NCBI GenBank assembly: GCA_000004695.1
Contig: CM000152.2
Coordinates: 2,976,001-3,040,000, forward strand
Source: Dictyostelium discoideum
Taxonomy: Eukaryota
Reading direction: 5' to 3'
DNA: 64,000 nucleotides
In this document: piece by piece, positions 9,750 through 55,543 of the stretch
Layout: every line of letters begins with the position of its first letter
Numbering within the stretch: position 1 is the first letter of the stretch
Program-made: the position numbers and the translations under genes
Notes under the pieces: model-generated
The model's input: only the letters and a program-made list of their open reading frames with translations
Databases searched by the model: none
What the model was told of the DNA's origin: nothing

Positions 9750-12700
9750 CTGTTAATATTATTATTATTATTAAAAAAATTAAATAAACATACGATTTAC
9801 AGATAAAACCAAAATGATTTTTAAAGCAGTCATTTGTGGTGCCATTGAAGTTGAATTTGGATCTAAATAAGATAATAATAAATCTACAATATTTGAAGCA
9901 GTTAAGATGAATTGACTATCTTTATTTGAGACTAAACAAGCGATTGCTTCTAAACCCAACATTCTTAATGCTTCGAATTGAGTATCACCCAATAGGGAGA
10001 GATATTTCTTTACAACTCTTTCACGATAATGACCGAGATTAATTTGATCTTGAACGGATTTCAAAGAGATAACTCTTGCAAGTGCAGAAGCGACACGTAA
10101 ATCGAAACCACTATTAATTGAATGTACCATCATATCCAACAATTGATTTACGCCACCCAATTTGACAAATTCAACCTGTACAGAATTTGACTCTAAAAGT
10201 AATGTTAAACACCAAAGAATTTGCAATCTAATCAATTCATTCTGATGAGATAATAGATTGATTAATAGTGGAATACCACCTTTGATGAGGATTTGCTCTC
10301 TATTCTCTTCACGGTCAGCACCATTTGATAATTGTGATAGTAGACGTAGGGTAATGAAGAGGATATTCTCTTTTTGTGAATTCAAAGTCTCCATTAAGAT
10401 ATTGATACCCAATAAATTTCTAAACAAATTCATAATCTCTTCATTGTGTTCAATTAATGTTGAAAATTGTTTTAAACATGATAATTGAATCTCATCATAG
10501 GGCTGATCCATCAATTGGAAGATTAAAGGTACGAAATCTGCCTCCAATAGATATTCAATATTTTCAACATTTTTACAAAGTTGATCAATGGTTTGACTTG
10601 CTCTATGTAAATTCAATAAAGTTGGTTGACTAATTAAATCCTTTACAACATTTGCAATCTTTTCAATTTTTACTCTCTTTTCTGGATCCAATGATTCATT
10701 AAATCTTTTATTTGGATTTAAAAGATTATTCATTTCATTCTTTATTTTTTCTTCAACTTGTTCTTGTGAAACTAATGAATCTTGAGTAGAAGTTGATGAA
10801 GTTGATGATGTTAATTGTTGTTCTGGTTGTTGTTGTTGTTGATCTTGTTGTTGTTGTTGTTGTTGTTGTTGTGTTGGTTTATTAAATCTTTGAATTGTAT
10901 GTAATGGTTGTCTTAAAATTTTTAAAATTGTTGTAAAAGTTGGTCTAACGGATGGATCAGTTGATAAACAAAGTTTAATTAATTTTTCAATTGTGAATGG
11001 ACAATTTGGTAAAGGTGGTCTAAGATAATGAGTATAACCATTGACAGTGTTACTCTTTAGATCGGATAATTTAATATCACGAGCGAACATCTCCCAAAGT
11101 AAAACACCAAAACTGAAAACATCAACCTTTGTATCGTAACCACCCTTTGAACCTGACAAAACATTGAATAGCTCTGGTGCAAGGTATTGGGTGTGTAATA
11201 ATTGATTCTTTAATTGAAAAGACATAAACTTCTTTTTCAAAGTTTCATCCTTCAATGAAGTGAAACCATAATCTTTGATATAGATCTTCAAATCTGAATT
11301 CAATAGAATATTCTTTGGATGCAATGATCTATGAACGATATTAAAAGAGTGAAGGAATGACATGGCCGAAGCAATCTCTTCCGATAGTCTAAGAATTAAT
11401 TGAAGTTCATTCTTCTCATCTAAATTCTTTATGACGATATCTAAATTGCTACCAGTGATATACTCTGTAAAGGTGGTGAATGTTTGATTGTCAAATGATG
11501 CTCCTGCCAATGCTAAAATATTTGGATGTTTAATTGCTACCAATTGCTCAATCTCATTGAATAACATTGGTGTCGCTTGTGATGTTATGAAATTCCATTG
11601 TTTCATCACTATTCTCTTATCCTTATGAATACCTGCTCTTTGTGTTGTACCATTATTACCTGATCCAATAATATCTGATGGTTGTGCTTTAATATACCAT
11701 GATTTATCTGATTGTTGTTGTTCAATTTGATTCTGTTCATCAATTAATTCTTTATTATTATTATTACCATTGCTATTATTATCATTATTTTTATTTGTAA
11801 TATCATCATCTAAATCATTATTACCTAAAATCTTTTGAATAACTTGTTCATCAGGTGTTAATTGTACTTTTACTTTTGATTGTAATGATTGTTCTTCAAC
11901 TGATAATGGATAGAATTGTTGTGATGTATAAACAACTTTTGGAGCTGATGGGTCAAGATTACTTGAAGATGTTAATAGATTTGAATTACTCTCTTTAAAA
12001 TGTGAAATCATATCATCTAATAATTGATCTGAATCTTTGAATGTTGGTGATACAGGTGTTGATACTGTTGTTGTTGGTGGTTGTGGTTGTGATGTTGGTG
12101 TTGGTTGTGGTGCTGCTGGTTGTGGTGCTGCTGATTGTGATGGTGATGGTGATGATAATGTTGGTATTGGTGTTGGTGCTTTTGGTGATGATACTTGAAT
12201 ATCAACTGGTGCACCAAGTTTTGCTGCTGGTCTAGTTGTTAATGTACCATTTGGTGATTTACTAGCATTTAATTTATTAACTGTTGCTGCTGTAGTTGTA
12301 TTAGTAGAGGTAGTGGTTGATGGTGTTACAATTGGTGTTGGTATTGATGTAGTTTTAATCTCTTTTGGTAAACTATTATTACCATTTGGTTCTGGTATAC
12401 CTCCAAATGATTCAATCATTTCATCTAATAAATCTGCTGCATCAATTGCTTCTTTAGTTAAAATAATTGCTCTTTCTGATGAAACTCTCTTTAATATTGG
12501 ATTACCATTCTTTACACTATCTGTTAATATTTGTTCATCTGCTGTTGTTGTTGTTGGTGGTGGTGGTGGTAATTGTAATTCTTCAGTTGATGGTGGTGGT
12601 AATGGTAATTCCTCAGTTGTTGGTGGTGGAGGTAAAGAAATTGAAACAGGTGGTGGTAATTTTGCAATTATTACTACATCATCTTGTTGTGATGGTGGTG

Positions 12701-13510
12701 GTGGTAGTGGTAATGTTGAAGCATTATTATTACTAATTATATTTGATGGATTTGAAGGTGGTGATAAATTTTTAGATAAATATGAAGATGGTTTTCTTTT
12801 ATTTTGAATTGAACTATCTTTCATAAAAGTTTCTTCTAAATCTTTTAAAGTTGATTCTAAATCAAAGGTTGAGGTGAGTCTTAAAGATTTGATTCTAGAA
12901 TTATCAGTTTTAATTGAATTTCTAATTGACTCATCACTCATATCATTTAAGAGTGTATCTAAATAATCAAATCCTCCTTCATTTAAATTACTTGGATGTT
13001 GTGATAATCTTGATTTTCTTTTCTCTGTTGCTGATTGTTGGGCTGCTGTTGTGGTTGTTGTTGAACTATTTCCATTTCCATTTGGCATTTGCTCTTGAAA
13101 TGATATTTTTGTTGCAGAATTACCATTATTATTATTATTATTGTTGTTGTTGCTGTTGTTGTTGTTTAAATTTATTGTTGATTGACCATTTAATGCAGCC
13201 TCTGATTCTGCTAACATCTCATTTAATAAATCATCCAATTCTAATGTGAATTAAAATATAATTCATTTATTTAATTTTTATTATGAAAATAAAATTTTAA
13301 TTTGAAAAAAAAAAAAAAAAAAAAAAAAAAAATTATATAATAAAATAAAATAAAATAAGAAATAGGGAAAAGTAAAATAAAAAGTTTTAAAAAAAAAAAA
13401 AAAATTATTAGATTTTTATCCCATGATTAGGAAAATAAAATTTTAAAAAAAATAATAAAAAAAAAATGGAAAATAAAAAAAAAAAAAAAAAAAATTACTT
13501 ACCAGACATG
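9578..13510 (-). CDS. Protein-kinase-fold protein with C-terminal armadillo/HEAT-like repeats; predicted pseudokinase (HRS instead of HRD, DYG instead of DFG)
   Basis: complement(join(9578..9702,9794..13240,13504..13510)). There is a 7-nt first exon ATGTCTG followed by GTAAGTA; the ORF-track leading M is actually TTG. The kinase core has GSGNNG, VMK, HPNIL, the catalytic loop HRSLHPKN, DYG, and APE. A 3' GTATGT donor at 9793 is followed by a terminal exon ...PIHIPYLKSSNIIEPLQYLKSSPHPSIQKAVEKILMLVSSK*. The C-terminal 450 aa are leucine-rich helical repeats (LLINLL.., GGIPLLINLLSH). Confidence 0.7.
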
Positions 13511-13627
13511 ATTGAGAGTATTTAGTATATAAATAATATCTATTTATAAAGAGTTTGTTTTTCTTTTTTTTTTTTTGTTTTTTTTTTTGTTTTTCTATTT
13601 AATGTGGGGGTGTGTGAGATATTGATA

Positions 13628-13680
<53 letters not shown>

Positions 13681-13895
13681 GCCAAAATAAAAATTTAAAA
13701 ATAAAAAATGAAAAATAAAAAAAAAATTAAAAAAATTAAAAATAAAAAAATGAAAAATAAAATAAAGAAAAAAAAAAAAAAAAAAGGAAAAAGATAAAAT
13801 TCTAGGGATTTGACAGTGATCGTGCCGATTTCTTTTATTTTTTTTAAAAATAAATTTTATTTTTTTATCTTTTTATTTTTTTTATCTTTTTATCT

Positions 13896-14700
13896 TTTTA
13901 TTATTATAAACATTTATTTATTTTTTTTTTATAAAGAAATTAATCAAATATTAATAAATTAAAAAATAAATATTGATTTTAAATAATAAAAATCTCAAAA
14001 TTAAAAAAATAAAAATTAAAAAAAAAAAAAATATATAAATATATATATAAATTAAATTAAAAAAATTATTATTTATTATTTATTATTTTATTTCCTAATC
14101 CCGTCCAAAAAAAAAGAAATCGATTTCTTTTTTTTTTTTTCAAAAAATACTATTACAAAAAAAAAAATGAAAAAAATTAAAAAAAAAAAAAAATTTTATT
14201 TTTATTATTTGGACCGATATTTAAAAAAAAATTCTTTCAACCATATATTTTTTGAAAGTTTTTGGGTGATAACGTCTTTGATTTTGTTCAATGGATATCC
14301 ACAATGGTGTAATTAATTTATTTAGAACAATGCCTATGACCAAGATATTTGTGGATCACCCCCAATCATCACAATTACGACCATGATCTTGACAATATTT
14401 TTTAAAAATGAATTTTATTTTTTTATTTTTTTTATAATTTATTTTAAAAAAAAAATAAAGAAATTAATCATAAAAGAATTAAAAAATTAATAAATAAATA
14501 TTGATTTTAAATAAATATATTACCCAATTTAAAAATTATTATTTATTATTTTTTATTTATTATTATTTCATTTCCCGTCCCGATCCAAAAAAAAATCGAT
14601 TATTTATGTTTTTAAACAAAAAAAAAATTTTTATTCTATTTTTTATTTTTTATTATTTGATCAATCTTTAAAAAAAAAAAAAAAATTCTTTAAACTATTA
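13896..14700. repeat. Two ~270-bp imperfect direct repeats (13896-14230 and 14436-14700) in a divergent promoter region, each containing a CCCGTCC...(A)9...ATCGATT core
   Basis: Shared blocks: ataaagaaattaatca; taaataaatattgattttaaata; ttattatttattatt; tttcc(taat)cccgtcc...atcgatt; ttattattt(g)gaccgatat/gatcaatct...aaaaaaaa...attcttt. Confidence 0.6.
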
Positions 14701-38061: not shown

Positions 38062-39761
38062 GATATATATAAATATATGTACTAATTTTTATTTTTTATT
38101 TTTATATAGATTGAAATTTCATTTATTTCACATGAATTTCATAATGAAAAAGAATTATCAGAAGAAAAAGTTGAAGAAATTGTTAAATCAATTTTAACAG
38201 GTTCAGAATTTGATAAAACATATTCAAAATTTGAAAAACAATTTGATGATAAATTTAATAAGAAATTCCTTGGTGAAAAATTAAAAAAACATAAACCAGA
38301 AATTTATAAAGTATCAAAAGAGTCACTAAGTAATTTATTAGGTGGTTTCGGTTATTGGTATGGTAGTGGTATTACAAAGAAATCTTTAAAATCTGATAAA
38401 ATTATTAAATCTAAACCAGTTGTAAGTTTAATATTTATTATAAATTAATCAATATATATTAATATATTAATATATTAATTATTTTTATTATTTTAAAAAA
38501 ACAAAATAAAATTAAAAAAAAGGCATTATTTTCAGCAACACCATCAAGACCAGCATTTCCAAGAGGATTTTTATGGGATGAAGGATTTCAACAATTATTA
38601 GCATCAACATTTGATGTTGAATTAACAATTGAATCATTATCACATTGGTTAAATATTATGGATGAAAATGGTTGGATACCAAGAGAACAAATTCTTGGAC
38701 TTGAAGCAGCATCAATGGTACCAGAGGAATTTAGATTACAATTACCAAATATTGCAAATCCACCATCAATCATATTAGCAATTAATAAATTATTAGAGAT
38801 TTCACAAGCATATAAAGAGAGAACAACAACTAATAATAATAATAATAATAATGTTGATAGTAATAATTTTAAAATTAATATGATTAGAGATCTTTCAGTT
38901 ATTATTGAAAATAATAAAGAGTATGATTCAATTCAAAGATTTTTACATTCAGCATTACCAAGAATTGAAAGATTTTATCAATATTATTGGAATACTCAAT
39001 CATCAGGTTTAATTGAAAATTCATTCCGTTGGAGAGGTAGAAAGGTTAATCATACATTGGCATCTGGATTAGATGATTATCCAAGAGCATTGGAACCATC
39101 GACTTCAGAGATACATGTGGATTTAAATAGTTGGGTTGCTTTCTTTGCAAAATCATTATCAACTCTTACAAAATATTTAGGTGGTAGTGATAATAAGAAT
39201 CAAGAGAAATCTGAACTTTATTTCAAACAATTTACATTGATTCGATCAAATATTGAGCAAATGCATTGGGATGAGGAAGAGAATCTTTTCCATGACATTT
39301 TAATTCACAAGAATGGTAGTAAACAGTTTATTAGAACTTATGGTTACATGAATTATTTCCCAATGTTATTGGGTGTGTTGGATGTTGATTCTGCAAAACT
39401 TTCACCACTCTTAACCACTCTCAAAGATGTTAATGGAATTTGGTCAAGATGGGGTATTCGTTCAATGTCTTTAAAGGATAAGAATTTCGGTACTCATGAA
39501 AACTATTGGAAAGGTCCAATTTGGATCAATATCAATTATCTCTTTGTTCATTCTATGAATAAATTCTATACAAAAACTCCTTCAATCAATGAATGTTATC
39601 AAACACTCAGATTCAATCTCATCAATAACATTGGTAATATTTACTCTGAAACTGGTAATATCTATGAACAATATGATCCAATAACTGGTTTAGGTACAAG
39701 AAATCGTCCATTTAATGGTTGGACTGCTTTAGTTTCTTTAATTTCTTCTGAACAATATTAA
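36864..39761 (+). CDS. Mannosyl-oligosaccharide glucosidase (processing alpha-glucosidase I, GH63)
   Basis: join(36864..37314,37420..38024,38110..38421,38523..39761). It has a signal peptide. The GH63 signatures are PSRPAFPRGFLWDEGFQ, the LDDYPRA catalytic region, and WKGPIWININYL. Three introns have GTAAAA/GTAAAG/GTAAGT donors. Exon 2 contains a poly-Asn insert. Confidence 0.8.
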
Positions 39762-39955
39762 AAAAAAAAAAAAAATTTTAAAAAAAATAAAAATAAAAAA
39801 AAGAAAAAAAAATAAAAAATAAAAATAGTAATAATAAAAAAAAAAATAAATAAATAAAATATATATATTTAATTAATTTTTATTTTCTTTGTTTTTTTTT
39901 TACCATATTCCATTATTGAATAGATTGATAAATTTTTTTTTATTTTTTTTATTTT

Positions 39956-41596
39956 TTAATACTTTTTCTTTTTATGAACTTTTTTAATAACTTTTCTTTT
40001 ATTTATATCAATTGAACCTTCAGAATCACCAGAATGTCTATCAGAAGAACTTGAATAATTTTTATCTTTTAATTCATTTGTTGCAATTCTATGAGCTTCT
40101 TGAACTCTTTCTAAAAAGATTAAAACTGTTTCTTCTTGACATGGGAAAGAATCCAACTTTTTCTTTAAAACAAATTCAATACGTTGATACATTTCAACAT
40201 CGTATTGAGTGACGATAGTGATGGCACGACCAGAATTACCAGCACGAGCAGTTCTACCAACTCTGTGAACGTACTCTTTTGAATTGGTTGGTACATCATA
40301 ATTGATGACTAAATCAACTGATGGGATATCTAAACCTCTAGCAGCAACATCGGTTGCCACTAGAATTGATTTTGTACCTTGTTTAAATTTATTTAAAGAT
40401 GCTAAACGTTTACCTTGATCCATATCACCATTGATTGGAATTGCACCAAATCCTAAATTTCTTAACATCATTGCAATCTTTGTGGATGATGCGCAAGTCG
40501 ATGTGAAAATAATGGTTAAATTACCCGCCAATTCATTTAAAATGTATGCTAAATAACAATCTTTATATTTAAATGGTACGAAAAGGTATTGTTGAAGTAA
40601 TGTATCTACAGTTTGATATTTTGATGCAACTTGAACTTTCACTGGATTAACCAATGATGCTCTTTGAAGTTTTGCAACTTTTGATGTCATTGTAGCAGAG
40701 AAAAGGTATGTGTTTCTCTCTTTTGGTATCACTTTTAGAATGTTGTTAACTTCCTCTTCGAAATCTGCAGAGAATAAACGATCGGCTTCATCCATAATAA
40801 AGTATTTAATAGAACGTAAATTGAAACCTTTTGTATGCTCCAAATGATGTAAAACTCTACCTGGTGAACCTACGACCACATGTGGTTTCTTTGCCAATGC
40901 CAATGATTGTGACATTGAATCAATACCACCAACTAATACACAAGTTTTCACACCAATCGTTGAACCGATTGCATTGAATTGATCGGCAATTTGATATGCT
41001 AATTCTCTAGTGGGTGCCAATGCTAAACAGAATAAACCTTGTGGTGCTTCCAATAGCTTTTGTAATACTGGAATTACGAATGCTGCTGTTTTACCAGAAC
41101 CAGTTTGTGCCAACCCAATAATATCTCTACCTTTTAATGCCCATGGAATAGATTCCCTTTGAATCTCTTTTGGTTTATTAAATCCTAATTTATTACATGC
41201 ATCAATAATTTGTGGGTGAACTCCCAATGATTCAAATGTAACATTCTCATATTTCTTTTCCTCTTCTTCTGATTTCTTTTGATTTGTATTATTTATAAAT
41301 TCTTCAATCTCTTTTTCTTCTTCTTCTTTTTCTAATAATGAATCTTCATCTAATTCTTCATTTTTAATTTCTTTTTTAATTTCTTTTTTAATTTCTTCTT
41401 TAACTTCTTCTTCTTCTTCTTCTTTAACTTCTTTTTCCTCTTGTTTTTTAATTACTTTTTTTACAATTTGTTTTGGTTTTTCTGTCAATGTCGATTTCTT
41501 TGGTGCTGCTGCTATTGATGTTGTAGTTGTTTTTTTTACAACTGCACTACCATTACTTTTTAATGTTGGTTTTTTTTTTATGTCTGTGATTGCCAT
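39956..41596 (-). CDS. ddx47: ATP-dependent DEAD-box RNA helicase DDX47/Rrp3
   Basis: Has the Q motif, [21 protein letters not shown], and [10 protein letters not shown]. The N-terminus is K/E-rich. It is a single exon. Confidence 0.9.
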
Positions 41597-42895: not shown

Positions 42896-45800
42896 TTAAT
42901 TTTCAGACATTGGTTTTAATTTTGCTGAAAATGTTTTCATTTGTTTAGCAATGACCTTCTTTTTATATATTGTAACAATAGTAGCAAAAGTTATTGCAAT
43001 AGCAGCAACAGAACAACCAACGATAATTCCAGCCAATTGTGCTTTTGATAATCCAGATGATGGTTTTGGTGAGCATATTGAATTTTCATTATCATTTGTT
43101 GTTGATGGATTTGAATTGAGAAGTAATGAGAAATCTGGATCAATTATTACATTTTTGTTATAGATTGGTACATTAATACCAATAAATGATTGAGATGTGT
43201 GCGAATCACTAATTGCACCTAATGATTTATCTAATAATTCATTTGAAATTGTAATTGGAACTGAATCAACCAATGCTCTTTTAATTAATCTACCATATAA
43301 ACTTTTATTTGATATTGATAATTTAATAAAATCTGAACCTTGACTCGTTGTGCTATCAAATTCTTTATTTGAACATGAATCTGAATCTGAATTAATTATA
43401 GCAGTTGCTGATAAAATTAATTGCAATTGGCTCAATCTAGTTGAAAATGGATATTTCTCAATATAAATTGTATATTTAATTGATGATGGTTTCATTTTAA
43501 TTTCTTGACCTGCAAATTCAATTTTTCTTTCATTTTCAAAGTATTCAATACTAACTGAAATTGGTGTTGTTGTTCCATTTTTATTTATAATATTGGATGA
43601 ATATGTTGATAATTTAGAATTATTTGAAATATAATCCCATTTATCAAATGAATACATATGTAAAACTTTATTATTATAATCGATCTCTCTAATTGCTACA
43701 ACACTTACTAAAGCAACAATGCTTGATTCTGAATTGTCTGATGTACCATTTAATATAATTGTTGGAGATGTATTATTGAATTCTGGTTGAGGCACAACAA
43801 TAACTTTAGAATTACAATCTACACCAACCCATGGAGAATTACAAATACAACCTAATACATCATCGCAGGTACCCTGGGTTGGACCACCACAAATTGGTGT
43901 ACCTCTACATTTGGATGTTAAAATTGGTCTAAAGTATTTAATTCTGTATGGTGTGATTGTGTACATGTTTGATCTTGAATTTCCATTTTTAATTGAAATT
44001 GTAAATGGATCATTTGATGGTTTTACATCATCGACTTTAATAATTGAACCAGATTTCTTTGAAGGTGTTAATGAATAACCTTGACTGAATTCAACATTAA
44101 AATCACCATTTATTGGGAATTTACCATATATCAATAATGAACCACCTTCTGTTGATATTAGACTTGTACCTGTAATTAATCCAGGACTCTGAGAATCCAT
44201 TACAGTGAAGCTTGTTTCAATTAAAAATGGATATCCCATGGTTCTTAATGTAGGCGATGAGTAACCAAAGTATTCACCAAATCCAATTAAACCATAAAGA
44301 TTAACCATAATATCTTGTGGTAATCCAAATCCATACGGTATTGTTAATGTACATTTGTATTGGTTGAATGTTGAATTTACTTGTGTCGTAATTACATCAT
44401 TACATTTAATTTTTTGGAAAGTTGCACTTGTTAAATAAACAATTGGATATTCTTTAATACCTGATCCAATTGAAATTTCATATGTAAATGTTACATCTCT
44501 ATTTAATGATCCAACATTAATACTTTTTGGTTCAAAATCAAATGATTTTAATTCTGGTTGAGTGAAAACACCACCTGGACATTCAGTTTCAATTGAGAAA
44601 AAACTTTTATCTTTAATTGGATATAATGGATTGATATTTGGAGTATAATCTATAGCTTTATTCATAAAGAAAGTTGAATTTAAACCATATCTATCATACA
44701 ATACCATTTCTGCAATTGAGTATGTTTGAGACGTACATGTATTATTATTTAATGTTATATTGATTTGATATGTAAGTTCATTTGAATATTCAATTGGTGA
44801 AACAATTGAAACATTATAAAGAATATTATCAATTGAACCAATAACAACAACATAACCATTATTGAAACCTGAATAATCATTAATTGTAACTACCCAACTA
44901 ATATTATAATTTTCATTATCTATTAATGCCACACCTAAACTTGGATTTTTATTCATTGTTGTTACAATTGGTCCCATTAAATCAATACCTAAAATTTTGT
45001 TAAAAATAAAAAATTAATTAATATTGTTTTAATATTGATTAAATAAAATAGGTTTTACATACGATCACATATTACATTCAATTGGTATTCATAAGGTAAT
45101 TCAGTATTTAAAATATAATGTAAACCTGGTGTTCTAATTGCATATTCAAAATCACCTGGAACAATATTTGGAGGCATAAAAAATTTAAATTCATATCTTG
45201 AATTAATCCATTCACCATTAATTGTTATATTATCCCATTGAGGTATTATTTGAAGATATGGATCAAATGACAATGGAGAATCATTTGTTTCAAGATACAT
45301 AATATTATAACCATATGAGTTTGTTAAATTAACATCATTAAATAAGAAACTTATATTTGATATTGATTCAACATTAAATCCTATAAAATATAATTACTAC
45401 GATTAATAAATAAATAAAAAAACAAAAAATAAATATTGTATGTTACATACCAAAATTATTTAAAACAGGATAAGATAGCAATAGTTCGGTGGAAATAGAA
45501 TTTGTATCAGTTAGCAAAATTTCAAAATCAGGTCCACTCATTATATTATATTGATAGAAAAACTCCAATTCACCATTTTTTAAATCACCACTTAATATAT
45601 TGAAATCTGTTGAATAATATTGATAAATACCATTTGATTTATAACCCCCACTATAACTATTTAATATTATACTTGAAATACTAAATTGGGTCGAATATTT
45701 CAAATAAACCCTTCTAACATTGAAAAAATAATCTTGTTCTCTATACTCTAAAATTGTTGGGCCTGATGAATCTTTGTATAATTGTGGTTAGTTAATAAAA

Positions 45801-47239
45801 TAAACAATAAAGGGATATAATAATATGTGATAACATACTTGTATTGGGACCATTAAAATTTATTGTTTCTCCACCAATATCAAATGTATATCCTTGATCA
45901 GATAAATTTAATGTTGTTAAAACTGAAAAATCCATTATAAATTCATTATTATTTCCACTACCATATCCAAATGGAAAACCAGCAACTGATGTGGTATCCC
46001 AAAGAAATCTTTTCCAAGTATATTCAATTTCTTTTCTATTTATTTGGTTCTTTATAAAACAATTAATATTAAATAATCTATTATTGTTCAAAACAATTTC
46101 ATTGGTTGTTATATTTGAAATATTTAATAGAAAATCTAAAGTTTTTTATTTGTTAGTTTTTTTTTTTTTTTTTTTTGTTTTTATATTTCAAAACTTACAA
46201 GTATTATTATATATTTTTTTAATTTTTGATAATTTTGAATAATTTTGATACTGTAATTTAAAGTTTAGACTCCCATAATAAATTGATTTTAGATTTATGA
46301 AATAGTTAAAGGTTCCATCAATATTACTCGAGACTACCTTTGGTTTAAATGGAGATTCCATCACATTGATATATGGATATCTTTCAATTGGTTTAAAAGT
46401 GAACCAGTATTGGGGATAGTCAAAAGAGGAAATCATTTCAAATTCGCTTGGTTCATAATGAAGTATTGTCATATTATCGTAACTAATTGAACCTATGTTT
46501 TATTTATTAGTTTGAAATCCACTACGAATATTGAAAAATATTTTTTTAAATATACATACTTTTTTTTGGGGATGGGAGATCATATTGTTCAGATCCTATA
46601 AATATACTCCAAATTGGTGAAAAATCATCTGGTGCACCCCTAAATGTTAGTTTATATTTATTAAAATCAAAAGAAAGAGATGCACTAAAAACATCAACAT
46701 TAAATGTTGATAACCATGGTGGGTCTGTATTATCTTCCAAACCTGTAATATTAACATATAAACTATATGTTGATTTAAAAAAATTAAATGTATAATTGGA
46801 AATTGGTACAAATTTTAGATTTTTAGGAGTATCTGATATTTTTTATTTTGTTAGTAAATTTTTTATTATTTTTTATTATTTTTTATTAATATTTACCATA
46901 ACATATAATTTTTTGAGGAAATATTTGGGAAGAGCTTGGATTTTTAGAAGTAACATTGACATAAAAAATTATATCTCCAATATTTGCTGAAAAATATACA
47001 GGTGAAGTGATTGTACCACTAAATTTCTCTAACTGGTATTGGAAAATAGTTGTAGTATTATCCAGGGCGACCCAATCAATGTTTTCAATTTCTTCACTGT
47101 CAATGACTATTGAAGTTTCAAAATTACATCCCCCAAATGTTGCATATTTATTTTTAAAATTTGTTTGTAAAACAAAAATTGATAAAGTAAAATTTAAATA
47201 TAAAATAATAATAACAGTACAAATAAAAAATTTATTCAT
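42896..47239 (-). CDS. Large type-I membrane glycoprotein, cluster paralog A (~1,312 aa): signal peptide, >=5 ~100-aa beta-rich repeat modules, EGF-like Cys-rich module, TM anchor
   Basis: complement(join(42896..44988,45063..45380,45451..45771,45839..46135,46199..46492,46560..46832,46897..47239)). All six introns are phase 1, 65-80 nt, with GTAAAT/GTATGT/GTAAGT donors and ACTAAC-like branch sites. Each of exons 2-6 encodes one module with many NxS/T sites. Exon 7 contains CRGTPICGGPTQGTCDDVLGCICNSPWVGVDCNS and the TM LAGIIVGCSVAAIAITFATIVTIY followed by KKK. Confidence 0.7.
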
Positions 47240-48153
47240 TTTGTTACTGAAACAAATGAAAAAAAAAAAAAAAAAAAAAAAGAAAGAAAAAAAATAAAAC
47301 TTAAGAATAAAGAAATTAAAATTTTAGTGGCTTGAAAAGTTCTTTTATTGGTTTTCTAATGTTGTTCTTAGTTTTTAATAATCAATTTAAAAAAATGGGT
47401 TTCAAAAAAAAGATTCAAATAAAAGTATATAAATATTGGAGTAGTAGGCTAAAGTCTTTCCGAAAAATATAAAATAAACATAATGCTCTTAAATAGTTGA
47501 TGGGTGGGATGATTAAAAATACTTTCCTAATAATTTAGTTGGATATTTTAAAAACCAAAAAAATTAAAATCAACCCACTTTTTTCAAATAAACTTTTTCC
47601 AATTTTTTTTTTTTTTTCCCACAAGCCCAATTATTTCAATTTCATTTTAATCTTTTTTTATTAATGTTATCTGAATGTTTTTTTTTTATTGTTCATTTGT
47701 TGTTTGTGATAAATGTGTAGATGATTGTGGTGTTTGTGTTTGTATAATCTTTTCAAATTGTACTCTTTTAGATTGTGGTAATTCAAAATTAATAAATAAA
47801 AATTTTAATGGTTTTTCAACTTGACTCATTATTAATTATTTATTATTATTTATGCACTGTGTTATTGTGTTACTACTATTATAATATTATGGATTTGAAT
47901 TGGATCAATTATTTATTTGAAAAGGAATCTAAATCTGAATCTGAATTTGAATTAATTGAAATTGATTTAATCTTGTTGAAAATGGATATAAATTACATAT
48001 GCTTCAGTTTGTAAAAAAAAAAAAAAAAAATAAAAAAAATTTAAAAATATCAATAATATTGTTTTTTTAATTTTTTTTTTAATTTTTTTTTTTTTTAAAA
48101 TGATTTTTCATAATAAAAAGTGGAACGTTTTCTTGCATTAACGAAAATTTTTT

Positions 48154-48193
<40 letters not shown>

Positions 48194-48228
48194 ATTATCC
48201 TTTTCTGACCCATTTACATTCCAGTAAA

Positions 48229-48918
<690 letters not shown>

Positions 48919-49069
48919 TAGTAAAAATCTTTCATATAATTAATAATTTACAAATGATAATCCTTAGAAAATAATAAAATAAATAATAATATTGGTTATT
49001 TAAAAATTGTTTTATAATAAATAGAAATATTTATTTAATTATTTTTTTTATTTTAGAAATTCCTTTTTA

Positions 49070-50700
49070 TTATTTCATTGCTATTAATTTATTACTAAAA
49101 ACTTTCATTTTTTTTTTAAGATTTCTTTTCTTTTTGGTTGTAACAACAGTTGCAACAGTTATTGCAATAGCGACAACACAACAACCTATGATTATTCCAG
49201 CTAATTGTGCTTTTGATAATCCAGATGATGACGATGGTTTTGGTGAACATATTGAATTATAATTTGTTGTCGATGGATTTGAGTTGACCTGCAAATTCAA
49301 TTGTTCTTTCATTTCAAAGTATTCAATACTATATTAGATGAATATGTTGATAATTTATAATTATTTGAATTATAAATCCATTTATCGAATGAATACATAT
49401 GTAAAACTTTATTATTATAAACGATCTCTCTAATTGCTACTATATTTATTAATGCTACTATATTTGTTTCTGAATTATCTGATGTTGTTGTTTCGTTTAA
49501 AACAATTGTTGGAGAAGTTGTATTAAATTCTGGTTGAGGTACTATAATAACTTTAGAATTACAATCTACACCAACCCATGGTGAATTACAAATACAACCT
49601 AATAAATTATCACATGTACCATGAGTTGCACCACCACAAATTGGAGTTCCTTTACATTTTGATGGTTGAGGCTTGGTAATAACTTTAAAATTACAATCTT
49701 CGCCATCCCATTGCCAATTACAAATACAACCTAATACATGATTACATGTACCATGAGTTGGACCACCACAAACTGGTGTACCTCTACAGTTTGATCTAAA
49801 ATATTTAATTATGAATGGTGTAACTGTGTACATGTATGATTTTGAATTTCCATTTTTAATCGAAATTGTAAATGGATCATTTGATGGTTTCGCGCCATCT
49901 ACTTTAATAATTAAGCCAGATTTCGTTGAAGGTTTTAATGAATATCCTTGGCTGAATTCAACAGTAAAATCTGCATCTGGTGGGAATCTACCATAAATAA
50001 ATAGTGAACCACCTTCTGATGATATTGGACTTGTACCTGTAATTAATCCAGGGCTTTGAGAATCCAATACTGTGAAACTTGTTTCAATTAAAAATGGATA
50101 TCCATTGTTTCTTAATGTTATTGATGAATAACCAAAGTAAGCTCCAAATCCAATTAAACCATAAAGATTGACTAAAATATCTTGTGGTAATCCAAATCCA
50201 TATGGTAATGTTAATTTACATTTGTATTGGTTGAATGTTGAATTTGTTTGTGTTGTAATTACATCATTACACTTCAATGCTTGAAAGAGCTGCGCTTGTT
50301 AAATAAACAATTGGATATTCTTTAATACCTGATCCAATTGAAATTCCATATGTAAATGTTACATCTCTATTTAAAGATCCAACATTAATACTTTTTGGTT
50401 CAAAATCAAATGATTTTAATTCTGGTTGAATAAAGCTTCTTCCACTTGGACATTCAGTTTCAATTGAGAATAAACTTTTATCTTCAATTGGATATAGCGG
50501 ATTGATATTTGGAGTATAGTCTAAACCTTTATTCATAAAGAAAGTTGAATTTAAACCATATCTAACATATAATACCATTTCTGCAATTGAGTATGTTTGA
50601 GATATACATATGCATTATTATTTAATGTTATATTGATTCGATATGTAAATTCATTTGAATATTCAATTGGTGAAATAATTGAAACATTATAAAGAATATT
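49070..50700 (-). pseudogene. Degenerate fragment of the cluster glycoprotein gene (3' half only; frameshifts, internal deletion, duplicated EGF module)
   Basis: ORF pieces 50267..50578, 49309..50277 and 49070..49312 lie in three different frames. Together they are collinear with aa ~95-690 of exon 7 of paralogs A and B. Upstream exons 1-6 are absent. A segment of ~150 aa between the EGF module and the TM is deleted. The EGF module is tandemly duplicated (CRGTPVCGG...DCNFKVITKPQPSKCKGTPICGG...DCNS). Confidence 0.6.
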
Positions 50701-51045
50701 TTAAATCAAAAATAGAGATCACATGAAAAAATAAAAAAAAAAAAAAAAAAGGAAAAAAAAAAAAAGGAAAAAAAAAAATTATGATCCACATAGAAAATAA
50801 AAGTACATTATTTTATTTCTTATTTTTAATTATTTAATTAATTTACTTTTTTTTTATTTTTTTTTATTTTTTATTTTATTTTATTTCTTTTTTTTTAATA
50901 TTCTTAATAAATTTTATTAAATTGTTGTTGTTAAATTGGAAGATGGTTTTAAATTATTATTATTATTTTTTTTTTTTTTTTTTTTTTCCATTTAATAGAT
51001 GAGGAAAAATTTTAAAATGTCGATTTGATTTTTAAAGACAATTTA

Positions 51046-54000
51046 TTAATTATTTATTGCTTGCATTTTTTTCCCAAACACCTTCATTTCTTTTTTTAGA
51101 GCTTTTTTTCTTTTTATTGTGACAACAGTGGCAAAAACAATTGCAATAGCACCAACGGAACCAACAATTATCCCTGCTAACTGGGCTGTTGTTAAACCAG
51201 ATTTGGATTTTGTTGATTTTGCAGAACAAATTGAATTTTCATTTGTTGTTGTTGATGGATTTGAATTGAGAATTAATGAGAAATCTGGATCAATTTTAAC
51301 ATTTTTATTATAGATTGGTATATTAATACCAATAAATGATTGGGATGTGTGAGAATCACTAATTGCACCTAATGATTTATCTAATAATTCATTTGAAATT
51401 GTAATTGGAGTTGAATCAACCAACGCTCTCCTTATGAATCTACCATATAAACTTTTACCTGATATTGATAATTTAACATAATCTGAACTTTCACTTGTTG
51501 TATTATCAAATTCTTTATTTGAACATGAATCTGAATTTGAATTAATTATTGCAGTGGCTGATATAATTAATTGTAATTGACTCAATTTTGTTGAAAATGG
51601 ATATTGATCAATATAAATTGTATATTTAATTGATGATGGTTTCATTATAATTTCTTGACCTGCAAATTCAATTTTTCTTTCATTTTCAAAGTATTCAATC
51701 TCTACTGAAATTGGTGTCATTGATCCATTTTTATTTATAATATTAGATGAATATATTGAAACATTTGAATTAATTGAATTATAAATCCATTTATCGAATG
51801 AATACATATGTAAAACTTTATTATTATAATCGATCTCTCTAATTGCAACTACATTTATTAATGCTACTATATTAGTTTCTGAATTATCTGATGTCGTTTC
51901 ATTTAATATAATTGTTGGTGAACTTGTATTAAATACTGGTTGAGGTACAACAATAACTTTAGAATTACAATCTACACCAACCCATGGTGAATTGCAAATA
52001 CAACCTAATACATCATCACATGTACCATGAGTTGCACCACCACAAATTGGTGTTCCTTTACATTTTGATGGTAATGTTGTTTTAATAAATCCTCTTTTAT
52101 ATGGTTTAATTATATATGGATTTGATTTTGAATTACCATTTTTGATCCAAATTGTAAGTGGACCACTTGATGGTTTTACATCATCGACTTTAATAATTGA
52201 ACCAGACTTCTCTAGAGGTAGTAATGAATAACCTTGACTGAACTCAACAGTATAATAAACATCTGGTGGGAATCTACCATAAATAAATAATAAACCACCT
52301 TCTGTTGATATTGAACTTGTACCTGTAATTATTCCTCCACTATTTGAGTTTATGACTGTGAAACTTGTTTCTATTAAAAATGGATATCCCAATTGCTGTA
52401 ATGAATATGATGAATAACCAAAGTAAGCTCCAAATCCTATTAAACCATAAAGATTAACGATTATATCCTTTGGTAATCCAAATCCATATGGTATTGTTAA
52501 TGTACATTTGTATTCGTTGAATGTTGAATTTGTTTTTGTTGTAATTACATCAATACATTTCAATATTTGAAGAGTTGAACTAGTTAAATAAACAATTGGA
52601 TATTCTTTAATACCTGATCCAATTGAAATTCCATATGTAAATGTTACATTTCTATTTAATGATCCAACATCAATATTTTTTGGTTCAAAATCAAATGATT
52701 TTAATTCTGGTTGAATGAAACTACCACTTGGGCATTCAGTTTGAATTGAATGTAAATTCCTATCACTTATTTTAAATAATGGATTGATATTTGGAGTAAA
52801 ATCTACTGCTTTATTTATATAAAAAGTTGAATTTAAACCATATCTATCATATAATACCATTTCTGCAATTGAGTATGTTTGAGATATACATGTATTATTA
52901 TTTAATGTTATATTGATTTGATATGTAAATTCATTTGAAAATTTAATTGGTGAAATAATTGAAACATTATAAAGAATATTATCAATTGAACCAATAACAA
53001 CAACATAACCATTATTGAAACCATTATAATCCTTAACTGTAAATGTCCAACTAATATTATAATTTTCATTATCTATTAGTGCCACACCTAAACTTGGTTC
53101 TTTATTCATTGTTGTTACAATTGGTCCCATTAAATCAATATCTAAAAACATATGTTTTTTAAAATAAAATTAATAAAACTATAATTAAAAAAATTAAATA
53201 AACAATTTAAAGATACATACGATCACTAATTATATTCAATTGGAATTCATCAGGTAATTCAGTATTTAAAATATATTGTAAATTTGGAGTTTTTATAGCA
53301 TATTCAAAAGCTCCTGGAACAATATTTGGAGGCATGTAAAATATAAATTCATAACGAGAATTTACCCATTCACCTTTAATTGTTATATTATCCCATTGAG
53401 GTATAATTTGAAGACATGGATTAAATGGTAATGGAGTATCATATGTTTCAAGGTACATTATATTATAACCATATGAATTTGTTAAATTTACGTCATTATA
53501 AAAGAAACTAATTTTTGATATATTCTCTGCATTAAAATCTATTAATTTATAATATTAAAAATTAGGAAAAAAGACTTTAAAAATTAATATAAAATAAAAT
53601 TAAAATAATAAACATACCATAATTTTGATCATATAGTTGTGGAAATGAAAGGGTATCTAAAAATGATTGATAATAACTATTTTGTTCTAAAATTGTATAT
53701 TCTGAATTTGAATCATAGATATTTAAAACTATAAAATCATTCTTTAGTAATCCATAAGTATAAATAAATTCAATAATACCATTATTAAGACTACCACTGA
53801 TAATGTTAAAATCTGTTGAAAGATAAACATAGGAATTCTGGAAAGCATTATTGATACTAAAATGGAATAATTCAATTTTAGAAATTCCATTTGGTGTTGA
53901 ATAATTAAATCTAAATAAAAGTTTGTTATCATCTTCTGAAAAAGTATCTAAAATATTAAATTTGGTAATTAATGGTGCTGAAAGATCTATAAATTAATTT

Positions 54001-55543
54001 TATAATTAGGTTAATAATAATTTAAATAAATAATATTAGAAATTTGTAAAAATATAATTTGTTACTTTTAAAATTAGGACCAGAGAATGAATATGAATAA
54101 CTTCCAACTGAAAATGAGTATGAACTATTTGATACATCCAACATTGTAAAAATTGAAATATCTAAATTAAAATTTTTATTATTTCCAGAACCAAAACCAA
54201 AAGGAAATGATTCATAATTTGTTTTACCACCTTCCCAATTATATTCAATTTCATTTCTACTTGTTAAATTCTCTCCTTTATAATTTAAGAATGTTAATAA
54301 ATCATCTAAATTAACTATATTTTTTGAACTTTGTAAATCTGTTGGTTCAAATTTAAAATCTTGATCTATATTTTTAATTAAAATGTTAGAAAAATAATAA
54401 AAATAAAAAAACAAAATTATAATTCTAATTCTTACATTTATAACTATTTTTATCTTGATATACATCTGAATAATTTTGAAGTGATAATGTACATAATACT
54501 TCACCAATAGAAATAATAAGTCTTGCATTAATAAAGTAGTTAAGAGATCCATCATCATAACTTGATACTATCTTTGGTAAGAAAAAAGAATCTCTTAAAT
54601 TAATATATGGATATCTTTCATTTGTTTTAATATTAATCCAAAATTGAGGATAATCAAATTTTGAATTCATATTATGATTAATATTATAGTAATCAATTAC
54701 TGCAGAATTTACATAACTAATTGAACCTTTTTTTTTTTTTAATTAATTATTAATTAACATTAATATTGTAAAGATAATCAAAATGTAAATTATTATTAAA
54801 ACTTACTATTAAATGGTGATGATATATTAAATTTTGGTGAACCATCAATGTATTCAAAAGACCATGTTTTTGGAGCAACGGTTTTTGGTGTACCGAAAAA
54901 TGTTAATTTGTATCTTCCATCATATTCATAGTCAATAGAAACTGAAAAAATACCACTCTCTGAAGTAGTAAGTCTGGGAACATATGAGACATCATCAATT
55001 AACCCACTCACATTAACATAACATGAATATGCTGATGTGAAATAATTATATGAATAACCAGATATTTGTTCAATTGTGAAATCAGTTGGAATTTCTATAT
55101 AATATAAATAAATAGATTTTTTTTTTTTTTTAATAAATGTTTAAAAAAAGGAAAATATATATATATATATTTTAATTACCCTGACACATAGGATAAGTTG
55201 TATGATATAAAAAACCACCATTTTTTGAATATGCTTTAACTCCAATTTCACATTGATTTATTGGACAATATACTCTCGCAGAAAATAACTGTGCTGTTTC
55301 ATTGTGAAAAATAACATTTACATCATTATAAGTTGTGAAAGCATTGAAACCACCCCAAGTTACATTATCCAATCCATTTAAATCTGAAACCAAAATTGAA
55401 AAACTGAATTCACATGAACCACCTATTGCATAAAAAGAAGATCCAAGTGAAAATTTAAATTCTTCAAATTTTAAATCTGAAATAACAAATTGAACAATAA
55501 ATCCAAACACCAATAAAAAATAAAAGTAAATATTAATTTTCAT
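51046..55543 (-). CDS. Large type-I membrane glycoprotein, cluster paralog B (~1,341 aa), same architecture as paralog A
   Basis: complement(join(51046..53141,53221..53538,53618..53986,54066..54365,54436..54726,54807..55094,55180..55543)). The intron positions and phases (all phase 1) are identical to paralog A. It has a signal peptide MKINIYFYFLLVFGFIVQFVIS, the EGF-like module CKGTPICGGATHGTCDDVLGCICNSPWVGVDCNS, and the TM LAGIIVGSVGAIAIVFATVVTI. Confidence 0.7.

What the first reader, a model, noticed from the sequence alone, without database searches (positions are those of the whole stretch)
42896..55543. Tandem same-strand cluster of paralogous giant surface glycoprotein genes (two intact + one decaying copy)
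Three head-to-tail copies of a ~4.3-kb gene family occupy 12.6 kb. The proteins are ~1,310-1,340 aa and have a signal peptide, a string of ~100-aa beta-rich N-glycosylated modules, an EGF-like 6-Cys module and a single TM with a short KKK tail. This architecture and the tandem arrangement resemble the polymorphic Tgr/Lag-type (IPT/TIG) cell-cell recognition loci of dictyostelids, which also come as adjacent paralogs with pseudogenes. I do not recognise it as a named member. Between the two intact copies the 3' exon and exon 6 are ~80% identical, whereas exons 1-5 are only ~30% identical. That mosaic is what one expects from 3' gene conversion plus diversifying selection on the distal ectodomain.
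Basis: partly seen in the sequence, partly recalled or inferred. Interest (0 to 1): 0.8.

Follow-up and report, generated by a model that had tools for sequence, protein, structure and literature searches.

The report
Tandem ComC/DPF-family surface glycoprotein genes
Three neighbouring genes of the social amoeba Dictyostelium discoideum (two intact, one broken) encode large cell-surface glycoproteins of the known but little-studied ComC/DPF family, not the Tgr kin-recognition family; their outer halves are very different, while their membrane-side halves are kept alike by gene conversion.

Summary
The window is D. discoideum AX4-type chromosome 3. On the minus strand lie DDB_G0280157 (copy B, 55543-51046, 1341 aa), DDB_G0280155 (broken copy, about 50706-49023) and DDB_G0280149 (copy A, 47239-42896, 1312 aa).

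A and B each have 7 exons and six phase-1 introns. Each has a signal peptide, an all-beta ectodomain, one 6-Cys EGF module, one transmembrane helix and a short basic tail.

The identity mosaic is real. Exons 1-5 are 32-47% identical in protein and exons 6-7 are 78-79%.

Pfam gives DUF7035-DUF7034-DUF7949(EGF)-ComC_SSD. This architecture is shared with DPF, a shed cell-density factor. No IPT/TIG profile hit was found, although one module has a TIG-like predicted fold.

Gene conversion of the 3' half is supported. Synonymous divergence there is 2.5-fold lower, and some paralogue tracts within one genome are closer than orthologues.

The 5' half evolves fast (dN/dS 0.4-1.6), but positive selection is not shown. 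Divergence between strains is no higher than in flanking genes.

The broken copy is the remnant of a third paralogue that is intact in a sister lineage.

Verdict: uncharacterised members of a known family, with a tidy evolutionary pattern. Modest interest.

The parts
42896..47239 (-). Copy A = DDB_G0280149, intact, 1312 aa. Exons: 47239-46897, 46832-46560, 46492-46199, 46135-45839, 45771-45451, 45380-45063, 44988-42896 (stop codon 42898-42896).
   Evidence: Splice enumeration. The assembled CDS has no internal stop. The translation matches KAM9949670.1 exactly and clusters with XP_641272.1/Q54VT3.
51046..55543 (-). Copy B = DDB_G0280157, intact, 1341 aa. Exons: 55543-55180, 55094-54807, 54726-54436, 54365-54066, 53986-53618, 53538-53221, 53141-51046.
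   Evidence: The model is identical to XP_641276.2/Q54VS9 apart from two acceptor choices (53987 and 53539), which are adopted here because orthologues carry those residues.
49023..50706 (-). Relic of paralogue C (annotated as DDB_G0280155, 410 aa). It is 5'-truncated, has a +1 frameshift near 50284 and a 472-nt internal deletion between about 49331 and 49285. It keeps the duplicated EGF unit (132-nt tandem repeat, 49545-49795) and a C-type TM and tail ORF (49312-49070).
   Evidence: blastn to A and B. It is 90% identical to the intact C gene of D. cf. discoideum, L003 12529-13895 and 14368-14627. Frameshift. Tandem repeat. Pfam finds 2x DUF7949 and partial DUF7034, with no ComC_SSD.
45451..47239 (-). 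A exons 1-5: signal peptide (aa 1 to about 22) plus the variable distal ectodomain (aa 23-509). No Pfam family. Predicted as a string of beta-sandwiches.
   Evidence: 32-47% protein identity to B. AF2 mean pLDDT 62.7, all-beta. Foldseek matches titin, CSF1R, LEPR and PTP-delta Ig/FN3 arrays at E down to 8e-8. dN/dS between orthologues is 0.4-1.6.
42953..45380 (-). A homogenised block: exon 6 and exon 7 up to the end of the TM segment. The partner in B is 53538-51099.
   Evidence: A single blastn alignment of 2512 columns at 85% identity. Exon 6 is 85% and exon 7 is 87% identical at the nucleotide level, while the tail is 58% and the 3' flank 40%. Codons differ at 15% of identical residues here, against 38% in exons 1-5.
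44576..44986 (-). A DUF7035 domain (aa 617-753).
   Evidence: Pfam PF23034, 98.6 bits against a cut-off of 27.
44204..44557 (-). A DUF7034 domain (aa 760-877).
   Evidence: Pfam PF23033, 95.6 bits against a cut-off of 27.
43940..44185 (-). A candidate IPT/TIG-like beta-sandwich (aa about 884-965). No Pfam hit.
43802..43909 (-). A EGF-like 6-Cys module (DUF7949, aa 976-1011).
   Evidence: Pfam PF25820, 48.3 bits against a cut-off of 27. Cysteines at 976, 982, 990, 996, 998 and 1007.
43121..43726 (-). A ComC supersandwich domain (aa 1037-1238).
42899..43042 (-). A transmembrane helix (aa about 1265-1290) and paralogue-specific basic tail (YKKKVIAKQMKTFSAKLKPMSEN).
   Evidence: Hydropathy analysis. 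AF2 helix at model residues 645-692. The A-, B- and C-type tails are each conserved across species.
48229..48918 (+). Interposed unrelated gene: a 229-aa coiled-coil/poly-Asn protein. It is not part of the family but is a fixed landmark of the locus.
   Evidence: ORF listed. No Pfam family. The orthologue sits at the same position in L001, L002 and L003.

Best explanation
The cluster is a birth-and-death array of ComC/DPF-family genes.

Shown: each intact gene encodes a type I membrane glycoprotein. From the N-terminus it has a signal peptide and about 500 residues of fast-evolving beta-sandwich modules, with exons 1-6 each about 90-120 codons and all introns phase 1. A conserved stalk follows: DUF7035, DUF7034, a TIG-like sandwich, one EGF module and the ComC supersandwich. 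Then come one TM helix and a short basic tail.

Shown: the ancestral locus held three paralogues in the order B, C, coiled-coil gene, A. AX4 has lost the 5' half of C. Other lineages have lost C altogether, duplicated A or frameshifted A. The stalk-coding exons 6-7 exchange sequence between paralogues by gene conversion, which keeps them about 80% alike. The head exons and the cytoplasmic tails stay paralogue-specific.

Inferred: by analogy with the two characterised relatives, A and B act at the cell surface in cell-cell signalling or adhesion during growth-to-development or aggregation. DPF is a membrane precursor whose 150-kDa ectodomain is shed and acts as a density-sensing, aggregation-promoting factor. 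ComC is needed for normal aggregation. The variable heads would give each paralogue its own binding specificity. The shared stalk would provide common display, processing or shedding, and possibly carbohydrate contact.
For: Family:
- All four Pfam domains score far above their cut-offs in A and B.
- The same four are found in distant members from Polysphondylium violaceum and D. discoideum.
- In DPF three of the four (DUF7035, DUF7034, ComC_SSD) exceed their cut-offs. The EGF module DUF7949 scores 20.7 bits, below its 27-bit cut-off. The sequence was taken from a supplement of PMC6889452.
- BLASTP of A against DPF gives 31.5% identity over 346 aa, E 2e-40.
- The family has 826 cluster representatives at E<=1e-3. 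Most are 1300-1400 aa, with the match at residues about 650-1350. The members whose cluster names were looked up come from Heterostelium, Tieghemostelium, D. purpureum, D. firmibasis and D. citrinum.

Function of relatives: DPF shedding and activity (PMC6889452). ComC is listed as a signal-plus-TM EGF protein (PMC4931340), and its mutant shows aberrant aggregation (PMC2873529).

Fold.

Locus history:
- L003 (D. cf. discoideum) carries B(1335 aa)-C(1370 aa)-cc-A(1368 aa), all intact.
- The relic is 90% identical to that C gene.
- L002 has two A copies, and L001 has a 1-nt deletion in A exon 5.

Gene conversion:
- Codons differ at 38% of identical residues in exons 1-5 against 15% in exons 6-7 (Fisher p=3e-10).
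- pS along exon 7 ranges from 0.03 to 0.40.
- Some 150-nt windows show paralogues in one genome closer than orthologues: A1/B in ACTFIW 0.013, A/C and B/C in cf. discoideum 0.000.
- Runs of shared polymorphic sites have permutation P of 0.0002 to 0.0006 in those genomes and 0.025 in AX4.
- The N-terminal tree resolves A, B and C clades across species, whereas the C-terminal tree loses the C clade for D. citrinum and D. dimigraforme.

Constraint: dN/dS is 0.04-0.08 in flanking genes, 0.2-0.4 in exons 6-7 and 0.4-1.6 in exons 1-5.
Against: - No expression or protein data for these genes could be reached. A full-text search for the three gene identifiers found nothing.
- ComC itself was not compared directly. 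The link rests on Pfam's naming of PF22933.
- Identity to DPF is only 25-31%, so a shared mechanism such as shedding is an extrapolation.
- Both AlphaFold models are of moderate confidence (mean pLDDT 63 and 65, pTM 0.46 and 0.36).
- Introns 5 and 6 of A and B are no more alike than composition-matched shuffles (z -0.5 and 0.6). Introns therefore give no independent support for one long conversion tract.
- In AX4 itself the run test is only marginal (P=0.025).
- In the C-terminal tree, orthologues still group together within the discoideum/citrinum clade. Conversion is therefore patchy rather than complete.
Confidence: 0.7

Rival explanations
1. One reading: a Tgr/Lag-like allorecognition locus. 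The paralogues would be polymorphic self/non-self labels whose distal ectodomain is under diversifying selection.
For: The proteins are large single-pass surface proteins built of Ig-like modules. One module has a TIG-like predicted fold. The locus shows gene gain and loss between isolates. The N/S ratio is higher in exons 1-5 than in exons 6-7 for gene A (Fisher p=2e-8 for AX4 versus ACTFIW A2, where dN/dS is 1.57, p=0.044).
Against: There is no Pfam IPT/TIG hit at lenient thresholds. The Tiger family is defined by IPT/Ig-like/E-set repeats (PMC3188802). The genes are arranged head-to-tail. Silent divergence between isolates (0.05-0.10) matches the flanking genes (0.08-0.10). A and B are 92-95% identical between AX4 and the ACTFIR/ACTFIW isolates, more conserved than a neighbouring kinase (90%). 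Most pairwise dN/dS values are below 1. The one value above 1 involves a recent duplicate, for which relaxed constraint is equally likely.
Confidence: 0.08
2. No gene conversion. The mosaic reflects one old duplication followed by strong purifying selection on the stalk and free divergence of the head.
For: Among orthologues the head also evolves about twice as fast as the stalk (B of AX4 versus D. firmibasis: 56% against 78%). Introns 5 and 6 show no significant A/B similarity. Orthologues still cluster in the C-terminal tree within close species.
Against: Purifying selection on the protein does not explain the 2.5-fold lower rate of codon change at identical residues. It also does not explain 150-230-nt tracts in which paralogues of one genome are identical while orthologues differ by 3-7%. 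For the stalk, paralogue distance (79%) equals the orthologue distance to D. firmibasis (78%). For the head it is far larger (35% against 56%).
Confidence: 0.1
3. A and B are themselves on the way to becoming pseudogenes: a decaying, unexpressed cluster without present function.
For: One of the three copies is already a relic. A is frameshifted in ACTFIR. The head region approaches neutral dN/dS in some comparisons. No expression data were found.
Against: Both ORFs are intact across 4 kb with 12 canonical splice sites. Orthologues of A and B are intact in D. cf. discoideum, B orthologues in D. citrinum and D. firmibasis, and a third full-length paralogue (C-type head) in D. citrinum. dN/dS in the stalk is 0.2-0.4 and is below 1 in the head for most pairs.
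Confidence: 0.07

Closest known systems
DPF (development promoting factor, DDB_G0289949; PMC6889452)
   Same: Three of the four Pfam domains clear their cut-offs in DPF (DUF7035, DUF7034, ComC_SSD), in the same order as in A and B. Both have a signal peptide, one small EGF module, a single C-terminal TM and a short basic tail. Both have an ectodomain of about 1300-1480 aa with many glycosylation sequons. BLASTP E is 2e-40 over the EGF-supersandwich-TM region.
   Different: Identity is only 25-31%. DPF's EGF module DUF7949 scores 20.7 bits, below the 27-bit cut-off. DPF has a Ser/Thr/Gly-rich linker before the EGF module and a longer tail. It is a different gene (DDB_G0289949) lying outside this window. 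Shedding and density-sensing activity are shown only for DPF.
ComC (communication mutant C), the protein after which Pfam PF22933 ComC_SSD is named
   Same: It has the defining supersandwich domain and is a signal-plus-TM EGF-domain protein (PMC4931340). From general knowledge (Kibler et al. 2003, Dev Biol), it acts upstream of lagC/tgrC1 in intercellular communication. That paper was not read here.
   Different: ComC's sequence could not be retrieved, so identity and orthology are untested. A and B are clearly separate paralogues with their own orthologues in sister species.
TgrB1/TgrC1 and the Tiger family
   Same: Large single-pass Dictyostelium surface proteins made of Ig-like sandwiches. 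The family undergoes gene gain, loss, pseudogenisation and intergenic recombination (PMC12745789).
   Different: No sequence-detectable IPT/TIG repeats. A different domain set (EGF plus supersandwich). Same-strand tandem arrangement rather than a divergent pair. No excess polymorphism. No evidence of a role in recognition.
Variable-head, constant-stalk surface gene clusters homogenised by gene conversion (for example MHC class I/II exons)
   Same: The pattern of partial homogenisation, confined to part of the gene in tandem paralogues.
   Different: This is an analogy of evolutionary mode only. There is no homology, and here the homogenised part is the stalk.

Membership tests
ComC/DPF family (Pfam architecture DUF7035-DUF7034-DUF7949-ComC_SSD) | ComC supersandwich domain (PF22933) above the gathering score | tested here: met
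ComC/DPF family (Pfam architecture DUF7035-DUF7034-DUF7949-ComC_SSD) | DUF7035 followed by DUF7034, N-terminal to the EGF module | tested here: met
   A: 98.6 and 95.6 bits. B: 105.1 and 96.4 bits. Cut-off 27 for both. The order is the same as in P0011, P0027, P0028 and DPF.
ComC/DPF family (Pfam architecture DUF7035-DUF7034-DUF7949-ComC_SSD) | EGF-like 6-Cys module (DUF7949) just before the supersandwich (single copy in A, B, DPF and other members; duplicated in C-type paralogues) | tested here: met
   48.3 bits in A and 47.9 bits in B against a cut-off of 27. Six cysteines. C-type paralogues and the relic carry two copies.
ComC/DPF family (Pfam architecture DUF7035-DUF7034-DUF7949-ComC_SSD) | Type I topology: signal peptide, one C-terminal TM and a short basic tail | tested here: met
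   Hydropathy peaks occur only at aa 3-26 and 1265-1290 in A, and at 3-24 and 1286-1313 in B. AF2 predicts a helix at the C-terminus. No dedicated signal-peptide predictor was available.
ComC/DPF family (Pfam architecture DUF7035-DUF7034-DUF7949-ComC_SSD) | Significant sequence similarity to an experimentally characterised member | tested here: met
   BLASTP of A against DPF gives E 2e-40, and of B against DPF E 1e-37.
ComC/DPF family (Pfam architecture DUF7035-DUF7034-DUF7949-ComC_SSD) | Ectodomain shedding, or a role in cell-cell signalling | not testable with these tools
   Needs tagged protein, conditioned-medium proteomics and mutants.
Tgr (Tiger) family | Repeated IPT/TIG domains recognisable by profile (PF01833) | tested here: not met
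   No TIG hit for A or B at E<=1. None for the isolated candidate module of five family members at E<=10. A profile of that module finds no IPT protein in PDB sequences.
Tgr (Tiger) family | IPT/TIG (E-set) fold of the modules | tested here: inconclusive
Tgr (Tiger) family | tgrB1-tgrC1-type arrangement: an adjacent, divergently transcribed pair (from general knowledge of the tgrB1/tgrC1 locus, not checked in the papers read) | tested here: not met
   All three copies are on the minus strand, head to tail. They are separated by 0.3-3.8 kb and by an unrelated gene.
Tgr (Tiger) family | Polymorphism between isolates well above the genomic background | tested here: not met
   pS between AX4 and ACTFIR/ACTFIW is 0.05-0.10 in A and B, against 0.08-0.10 in flanking genes. 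A kinase 35 kb away is 90% identical in protein. The isolates are reported as diverged genome-wide. Only 3-4 genomes were compared.
Tgr (Tiger) family | Sequence homology to TgrB1/TgrC1 | not tested
None of the homologue searches returned a protein with a TIG domain.

The most novel reading that the evidence does not exclude
The B-C-A cluster could be a second, Tgr-independent, fast-evolving cell-cell signalling or recognition module of group-4 dictyostelids. Each paralogue would display, or shed as DPF does, a different rapidly evolving head on a common stalk. Gene conversion would keep that stalk uniform because it must fit a shared partner such as a sheddase, a co-receptor or a glycan. Lineage-specific loss or duplication of paralogues (C lost in AX4, A doubled in one isolate) would then change the repertoire of social signals between isolates.
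Probability: 0.12. Interest if true: 0.6.

Novelty: new member of a known kind. Interest (0 to 1): 0.3.

Why it matters
The ComC/DPF family is one of the large families of surface proteins in social amoebae, with hundreds of 50%-identity clusters. To my knowledge only two members have any functional data, and both act in cell-cell communication at the onset of multicellularity.

This cluster gives a clean natural experiment on how such proteins evolve. The head is paralogue-specific and fast-evolving. The stalk is homogenised by conversion. Genes are born and die between closely related genomes. If the heads carry binding specificity, A and B are ready candidates for new density, adhesion or sorting signals.

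There are also practical gains for annotation. DDB_G0280155 should be treated as a pseudogene. The DDB_G0280149 model lacks 30 conserved residues.

Otherwise the finding is ordinary: the genes were already annotated, and the family is known.

Tried and rejected
- Tgr/IPT membership by sequence: Pfam on the whole proteins, then on the isolated module of five members at E<=10, then a profile search of PDB sequences. All negative.
- Internal repeats: profile-profile hhalign of the ten modules (exons 1-6, DUF7035, DUF7034, TIG-like, supersandwich) against each other. All probabilities were below 2%, so the modules are not recognisably copies of one unit.
- Introns as neutral evidence for a long conversion tract: introns 1-6 of A and B are no more similar than shuffles. 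An earlier impression from the continuous BLAST alignment was therefore dropped.
- Very high dN/dS (12-14) in A exon 4 against ACTFIR and ACTFIW-A2. This was one short exon with a very low synonymous count (0.5 of 59 sites). The pooled exon 1-5 value on a genomic alignment is 1.57. My first check mistranslated that exon because the local alignment had trimmed one base, so it did not test the estimate.
- Hyper-polymorphism: rejected after calibrating against flanking genes and a distant neighbour, and after finding that the source paper describes the isolates as genome-wide divergent.
- Look-up of DDB_G0280155 in the contig index found nothing. The afdb50 fold library was not installed. A Biopython bootstrap run timed out and was replaced by a hand-written NJ bootstrap.
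- Literature searches for the gene identifiers and for comC together with lagC returned nothing.

Full report
ORGANISM AND GENES

The window is very AT-rich, with 16-32% GC. The middle copy translates exactly to DDB_G0280155 of Dictyostelium discoideum AX4. My spliced model of copy A is identical to KAM9949670.1 and sits in the same 90% cluster as DDB_G0280149. Copy B equals DDB_G0280157.

All three genes are on the minus strand. They are annotated only as hypothetical or 'EGF-like domain-containing protein'. No paper in the searchable library mentions their identifiers.

CHECK OF THE OBSERVATION

I enumerated frame-preserving GT..AG introns. A and B each have seven exons and six phase-1 introns of 63-85 nt, with no internal stop codon. 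A is 1312 aa. B is 1341 aa after I adopted the annotated acceptors at 53987 and 53539, which orthologues support.

- Each protein has hydrophobic segments only at the extreme N-terminus and about 25 residues before the C-terminus.
- A has 28 N-glycosylation sequons and B has 24.
- Each has one 6-Cys EGF module and a short basic tail.
- Protein identity between A and B is 32-47% in exons 1-5 and 78-79% in exons 6-7.
- The middle copy matches the others only from 50706 to 49023. It lacks everything upstream of codon about 670. It has a +1 insertion near 50284 and a 472-nt internal deletion.
- No fourth copy is present in the window.

WHAT THE PROTEINS ARE

Pfam places A and B in the architecture DUF7035-DUF7034-DUF7949(EGF)-ComC_SSD, with scores far above the cut-offs. 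Distant members from D. discoideum and Polysphondylium violaceum show the same order.

An exhaustive HMMER search with exon 7 finds 826 cluster representatives at E<=1e-3. Most are 1300-1400 aa, with the match in their C-terminal half. Looked-up cluster names include proteins from Heterostelium, Tieghemostelium, D. purpureum, D. firmibasis and D. citrinum. A and B are therefore typical members of a large dictyostelid family with a conserved stalk and a variable N-terminal half.

No IPT/TIG profile hit appears, even at E<=10 on the isolated candidate module of five members. A profile of that module finds no IPT protein among PDB sequences.

PREDICTED FOLDS

Both AlphaFold models are of moderate confidence and are all-beta apart from the TM helix (mean pLDDT 62.7 and 65.3).

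- The N-terminal half matches multi-domain Ig/FN3 arrays such as titin, CSF1R, the leptin receptor and PTP-delta (Foldseek E down to 8e-8).
- The C-terminal half matches plexin A1/A2 ectodomains and a Met IPT fragment by Foldseek.

I infer that the well-predicted module between DUF7034 and the EGF unit is the TIG-like one. The output does not give aligned ranges, so this is not shown. The ten modules are not detectably homologous to each other.

CHARACTERISED RELATIVES

The literature search turned up DPF (DDB_G0289949). [quoted passage not shown] Its 150-kDa glycosylated ectodomain is shed and promotes aggregation at low cell density. The TM/cytoplasmic stub affects adhesion and growth (PMC6889452).

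I took the DPF sequence from the paper's supplement. Three of the four Pfam domains (DUF7035, DUF7034, ComC_SSD) clear their cut-offs in the same order, and the EGF module DUF7949 scores below its cut-off. It aligns to A with E 2e-40.

ComC, after which the supersandwich domain is named, is listed as a signal-plus-TM EGF protein that is developmentally essential and conserved only within taxon group 4 (PMC4931340). Its mutant shows aberrant aggregation (PMC2873529).

These two proteins are the basis for the functional inference. Nothing is shown for A or B themselves.

LOCUS HISTORY

I fetched the orthologous loci from three newly sequenced genomes.

- D. cf. discoideum (L003) has B (1335 aa), two small genes, an intact C (1370 aa, two EGF units), the coiled-coil gene and A (1368 aa).
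- The AX4 relic is 90% identical to that C gene over 12529-13895 and 14368-14627. It also shares C's duplicated EGF unit and its C-type tail.
- In isolate ACTFIR (L001), C is absent and an unrelated 1037-aa ORF lies in its place. A has a 1-nt deletion in exon 5.
- In ACTFIW (L002), only a fragment of that ORF remains and A is present twice.

The cluster is therefore a small birth-and-death array.

IS IT UNUSUALLY POLYMORPHIC?

No.

- Between AX4 and ACTFIR/ACTFIW, pS in A and B is 0.05-0.10. The two flanking genes give 0.08-0.10.
- An armadillo-repeat pseudokinase 35 kb away is only 90% identical between AX4 and ACTFIW.
- The ACTFI* locus tags appear to be the assemblies reported in PMC12745789; this match is my inference. 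That paper states that its tropical 'D. discoideum' isolates are genetically diverged from AX4 genome-wide and that some are possible cryptic species.

What does differ is constraint. dN/dS is 0.04-0.08 in the flanking genes, 0.2-0.4 in exons 6-7 and 0.4-1.6 in exons 1-5. The N/S ratio is significantly higher in the 5' part for gene A (Fisher p from 2e-8 to 0.006) and weaker for B. The single value above 1 (1.57, p=0.044) involves the duplicated A2 copy. This fits relaxed constraint as well as positive selection.

GENE CONVERSION

Four lines of evidence support it.

1. At residues identical in A and B, the codon differs in 38% of cases in exons 1-5 but in 15% in exons 6-7 (Fisher p=3e-10). pS along exon 7 swings between 0.03 and 0.40.
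2. In 150-nt windows, paralogues of one genome are sometimes closer than orthologues. A1/B in ACTFIW is 0.013. A/C and B/C in cf. discoideum are 0.000. Orthologue distances are 0.03-0.07.
3. A GENECONV-style permutation of polymorphic sites gives P=0.0002 for A/C (230-nt tract) and B/C (190 nt) in cf. discoideum. It gives P=0.0006 for A1/B in ACTFIW and P=0.025 for A/B in AX4.
4. For the stalk, the A-B distance (79% identity) equals the B orthologue distance to D. firmibasis (78%). For the head it is far greater (35% against 56%). The C clade seen in the N-terminal tree (90% bootstrap) dissolves in the C-terminal tree.

The homogenised block ends just before the cytoplasmic tail. The tail is paralogue-specific and conserved across species.

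One caveat: introns 5 and 6 are not significantly similar. Tracts are therefore probably short and patchy, or AT-rich introns decay too fast to tell.

CONCLUSION

The observation and the evolutionary reading (conversion of the 3' part, fast evolution of the 5' part) stand. The proposed kinship with Tgr/Lag does not.

The genes are uncharacterised members of the ComC/DPF family of type I surface glycoproteins. The most likely role is cell-surface or shed signalling and adhesion at the growth-to-development transition, with specificity in the head. That step is inferred from DPF and ComC, not shown.

Novelty is limited to the description of this cluster's evolutionary dynamics and to two annotation corrections.

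Noticed in passing
window 46743-46833 (copy A, start of exon 2): The AX4 reference model DDB_G0280149 (1282 aa) uses acceptor 46743. It skips 30 residues (DTPKNLKFVPISNYTFNFFKSTYSLYVNIT) that are conserved in orthologues and in copy B. The 1312-aa model with acceptor 46833 matches the AX2-type annotation exactly.
   Followed up: partly
window 49023-50706: DDB_G0280155 is annotated as a 410-aa protein-coding gene, with an artificial intron that bridges a +1 frameshift. It has no signal peptide, and most of the supersandwich domain is deleted. It looks like a pseudogene.
   Followed up: yes
L001 16211-19324; fragment at L002 7370-8116: An uninterrupted 1037-aa ORF with no Pfam family occupies the position of paralogue C in the ACTFIR isolate. 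It is degraded in ACTFIW and absent from the AX4 window and from D. cf. discoideum. Its origin is unknown.
   Followed up: partly
L002 10001-14357 and 17587-21945; L001 about 22600 (exon 5 of A): Copy A is tandemly duplicated in ACTFIW. The second copy differs mainly by non-synonymous changes in exons 4-5. The ACTFIR copy has a 1-nt deletion in a G run of exon 5, which could be a true frameshift or an assembly error.
   Followed up: partly
window 48229-48918 (+): A 229-aa coiled-coil protein with a 38-copy AAT (poly-Asn) tract lies between the relic and copy A. It is conserved at the same place in all four loci examined. The length of the Asn/Thr run differs between isolates.
   Followed up: no
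window 42896-47239 and 51046-55543: All twelve introns of A and B are phase 1. Exons 1-6 are each 91-123 codons long. Some exon boundaries coincide with low-confidence linkers in the model (model residues 183-208 and 484-512). This is an exon-per-module layout reminiscent of shuffled extracellular domains, yet the modules show no mutual sequence similarity.
   Followed up: partly
window 9780-13238 (-), 38658-41596: Neighbouring genes are an armadillo-repeat pseudokinase, a GH63 glucosidase fragment and a DEAD-box helicase. The kinase is only 90% identical between AX4 and the ACTFIW isolate. This shows how diverged these 'D. discoideum' isolates are.
   Followed up: partly
PMC6889452 supplement (DPF, DDB_G0289949): The DPF paper describes the protein as 'otherwise unique' apart from a small EGF domain. 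Current Pfam models place it in the ComC architecture (DUF7035, DUF7034 and ComC_SSD clear their cut-offs; DUF7949 is sub-threshold at 20.7 bits). That architecture has hundreds of relatives.
   Followed up: yes
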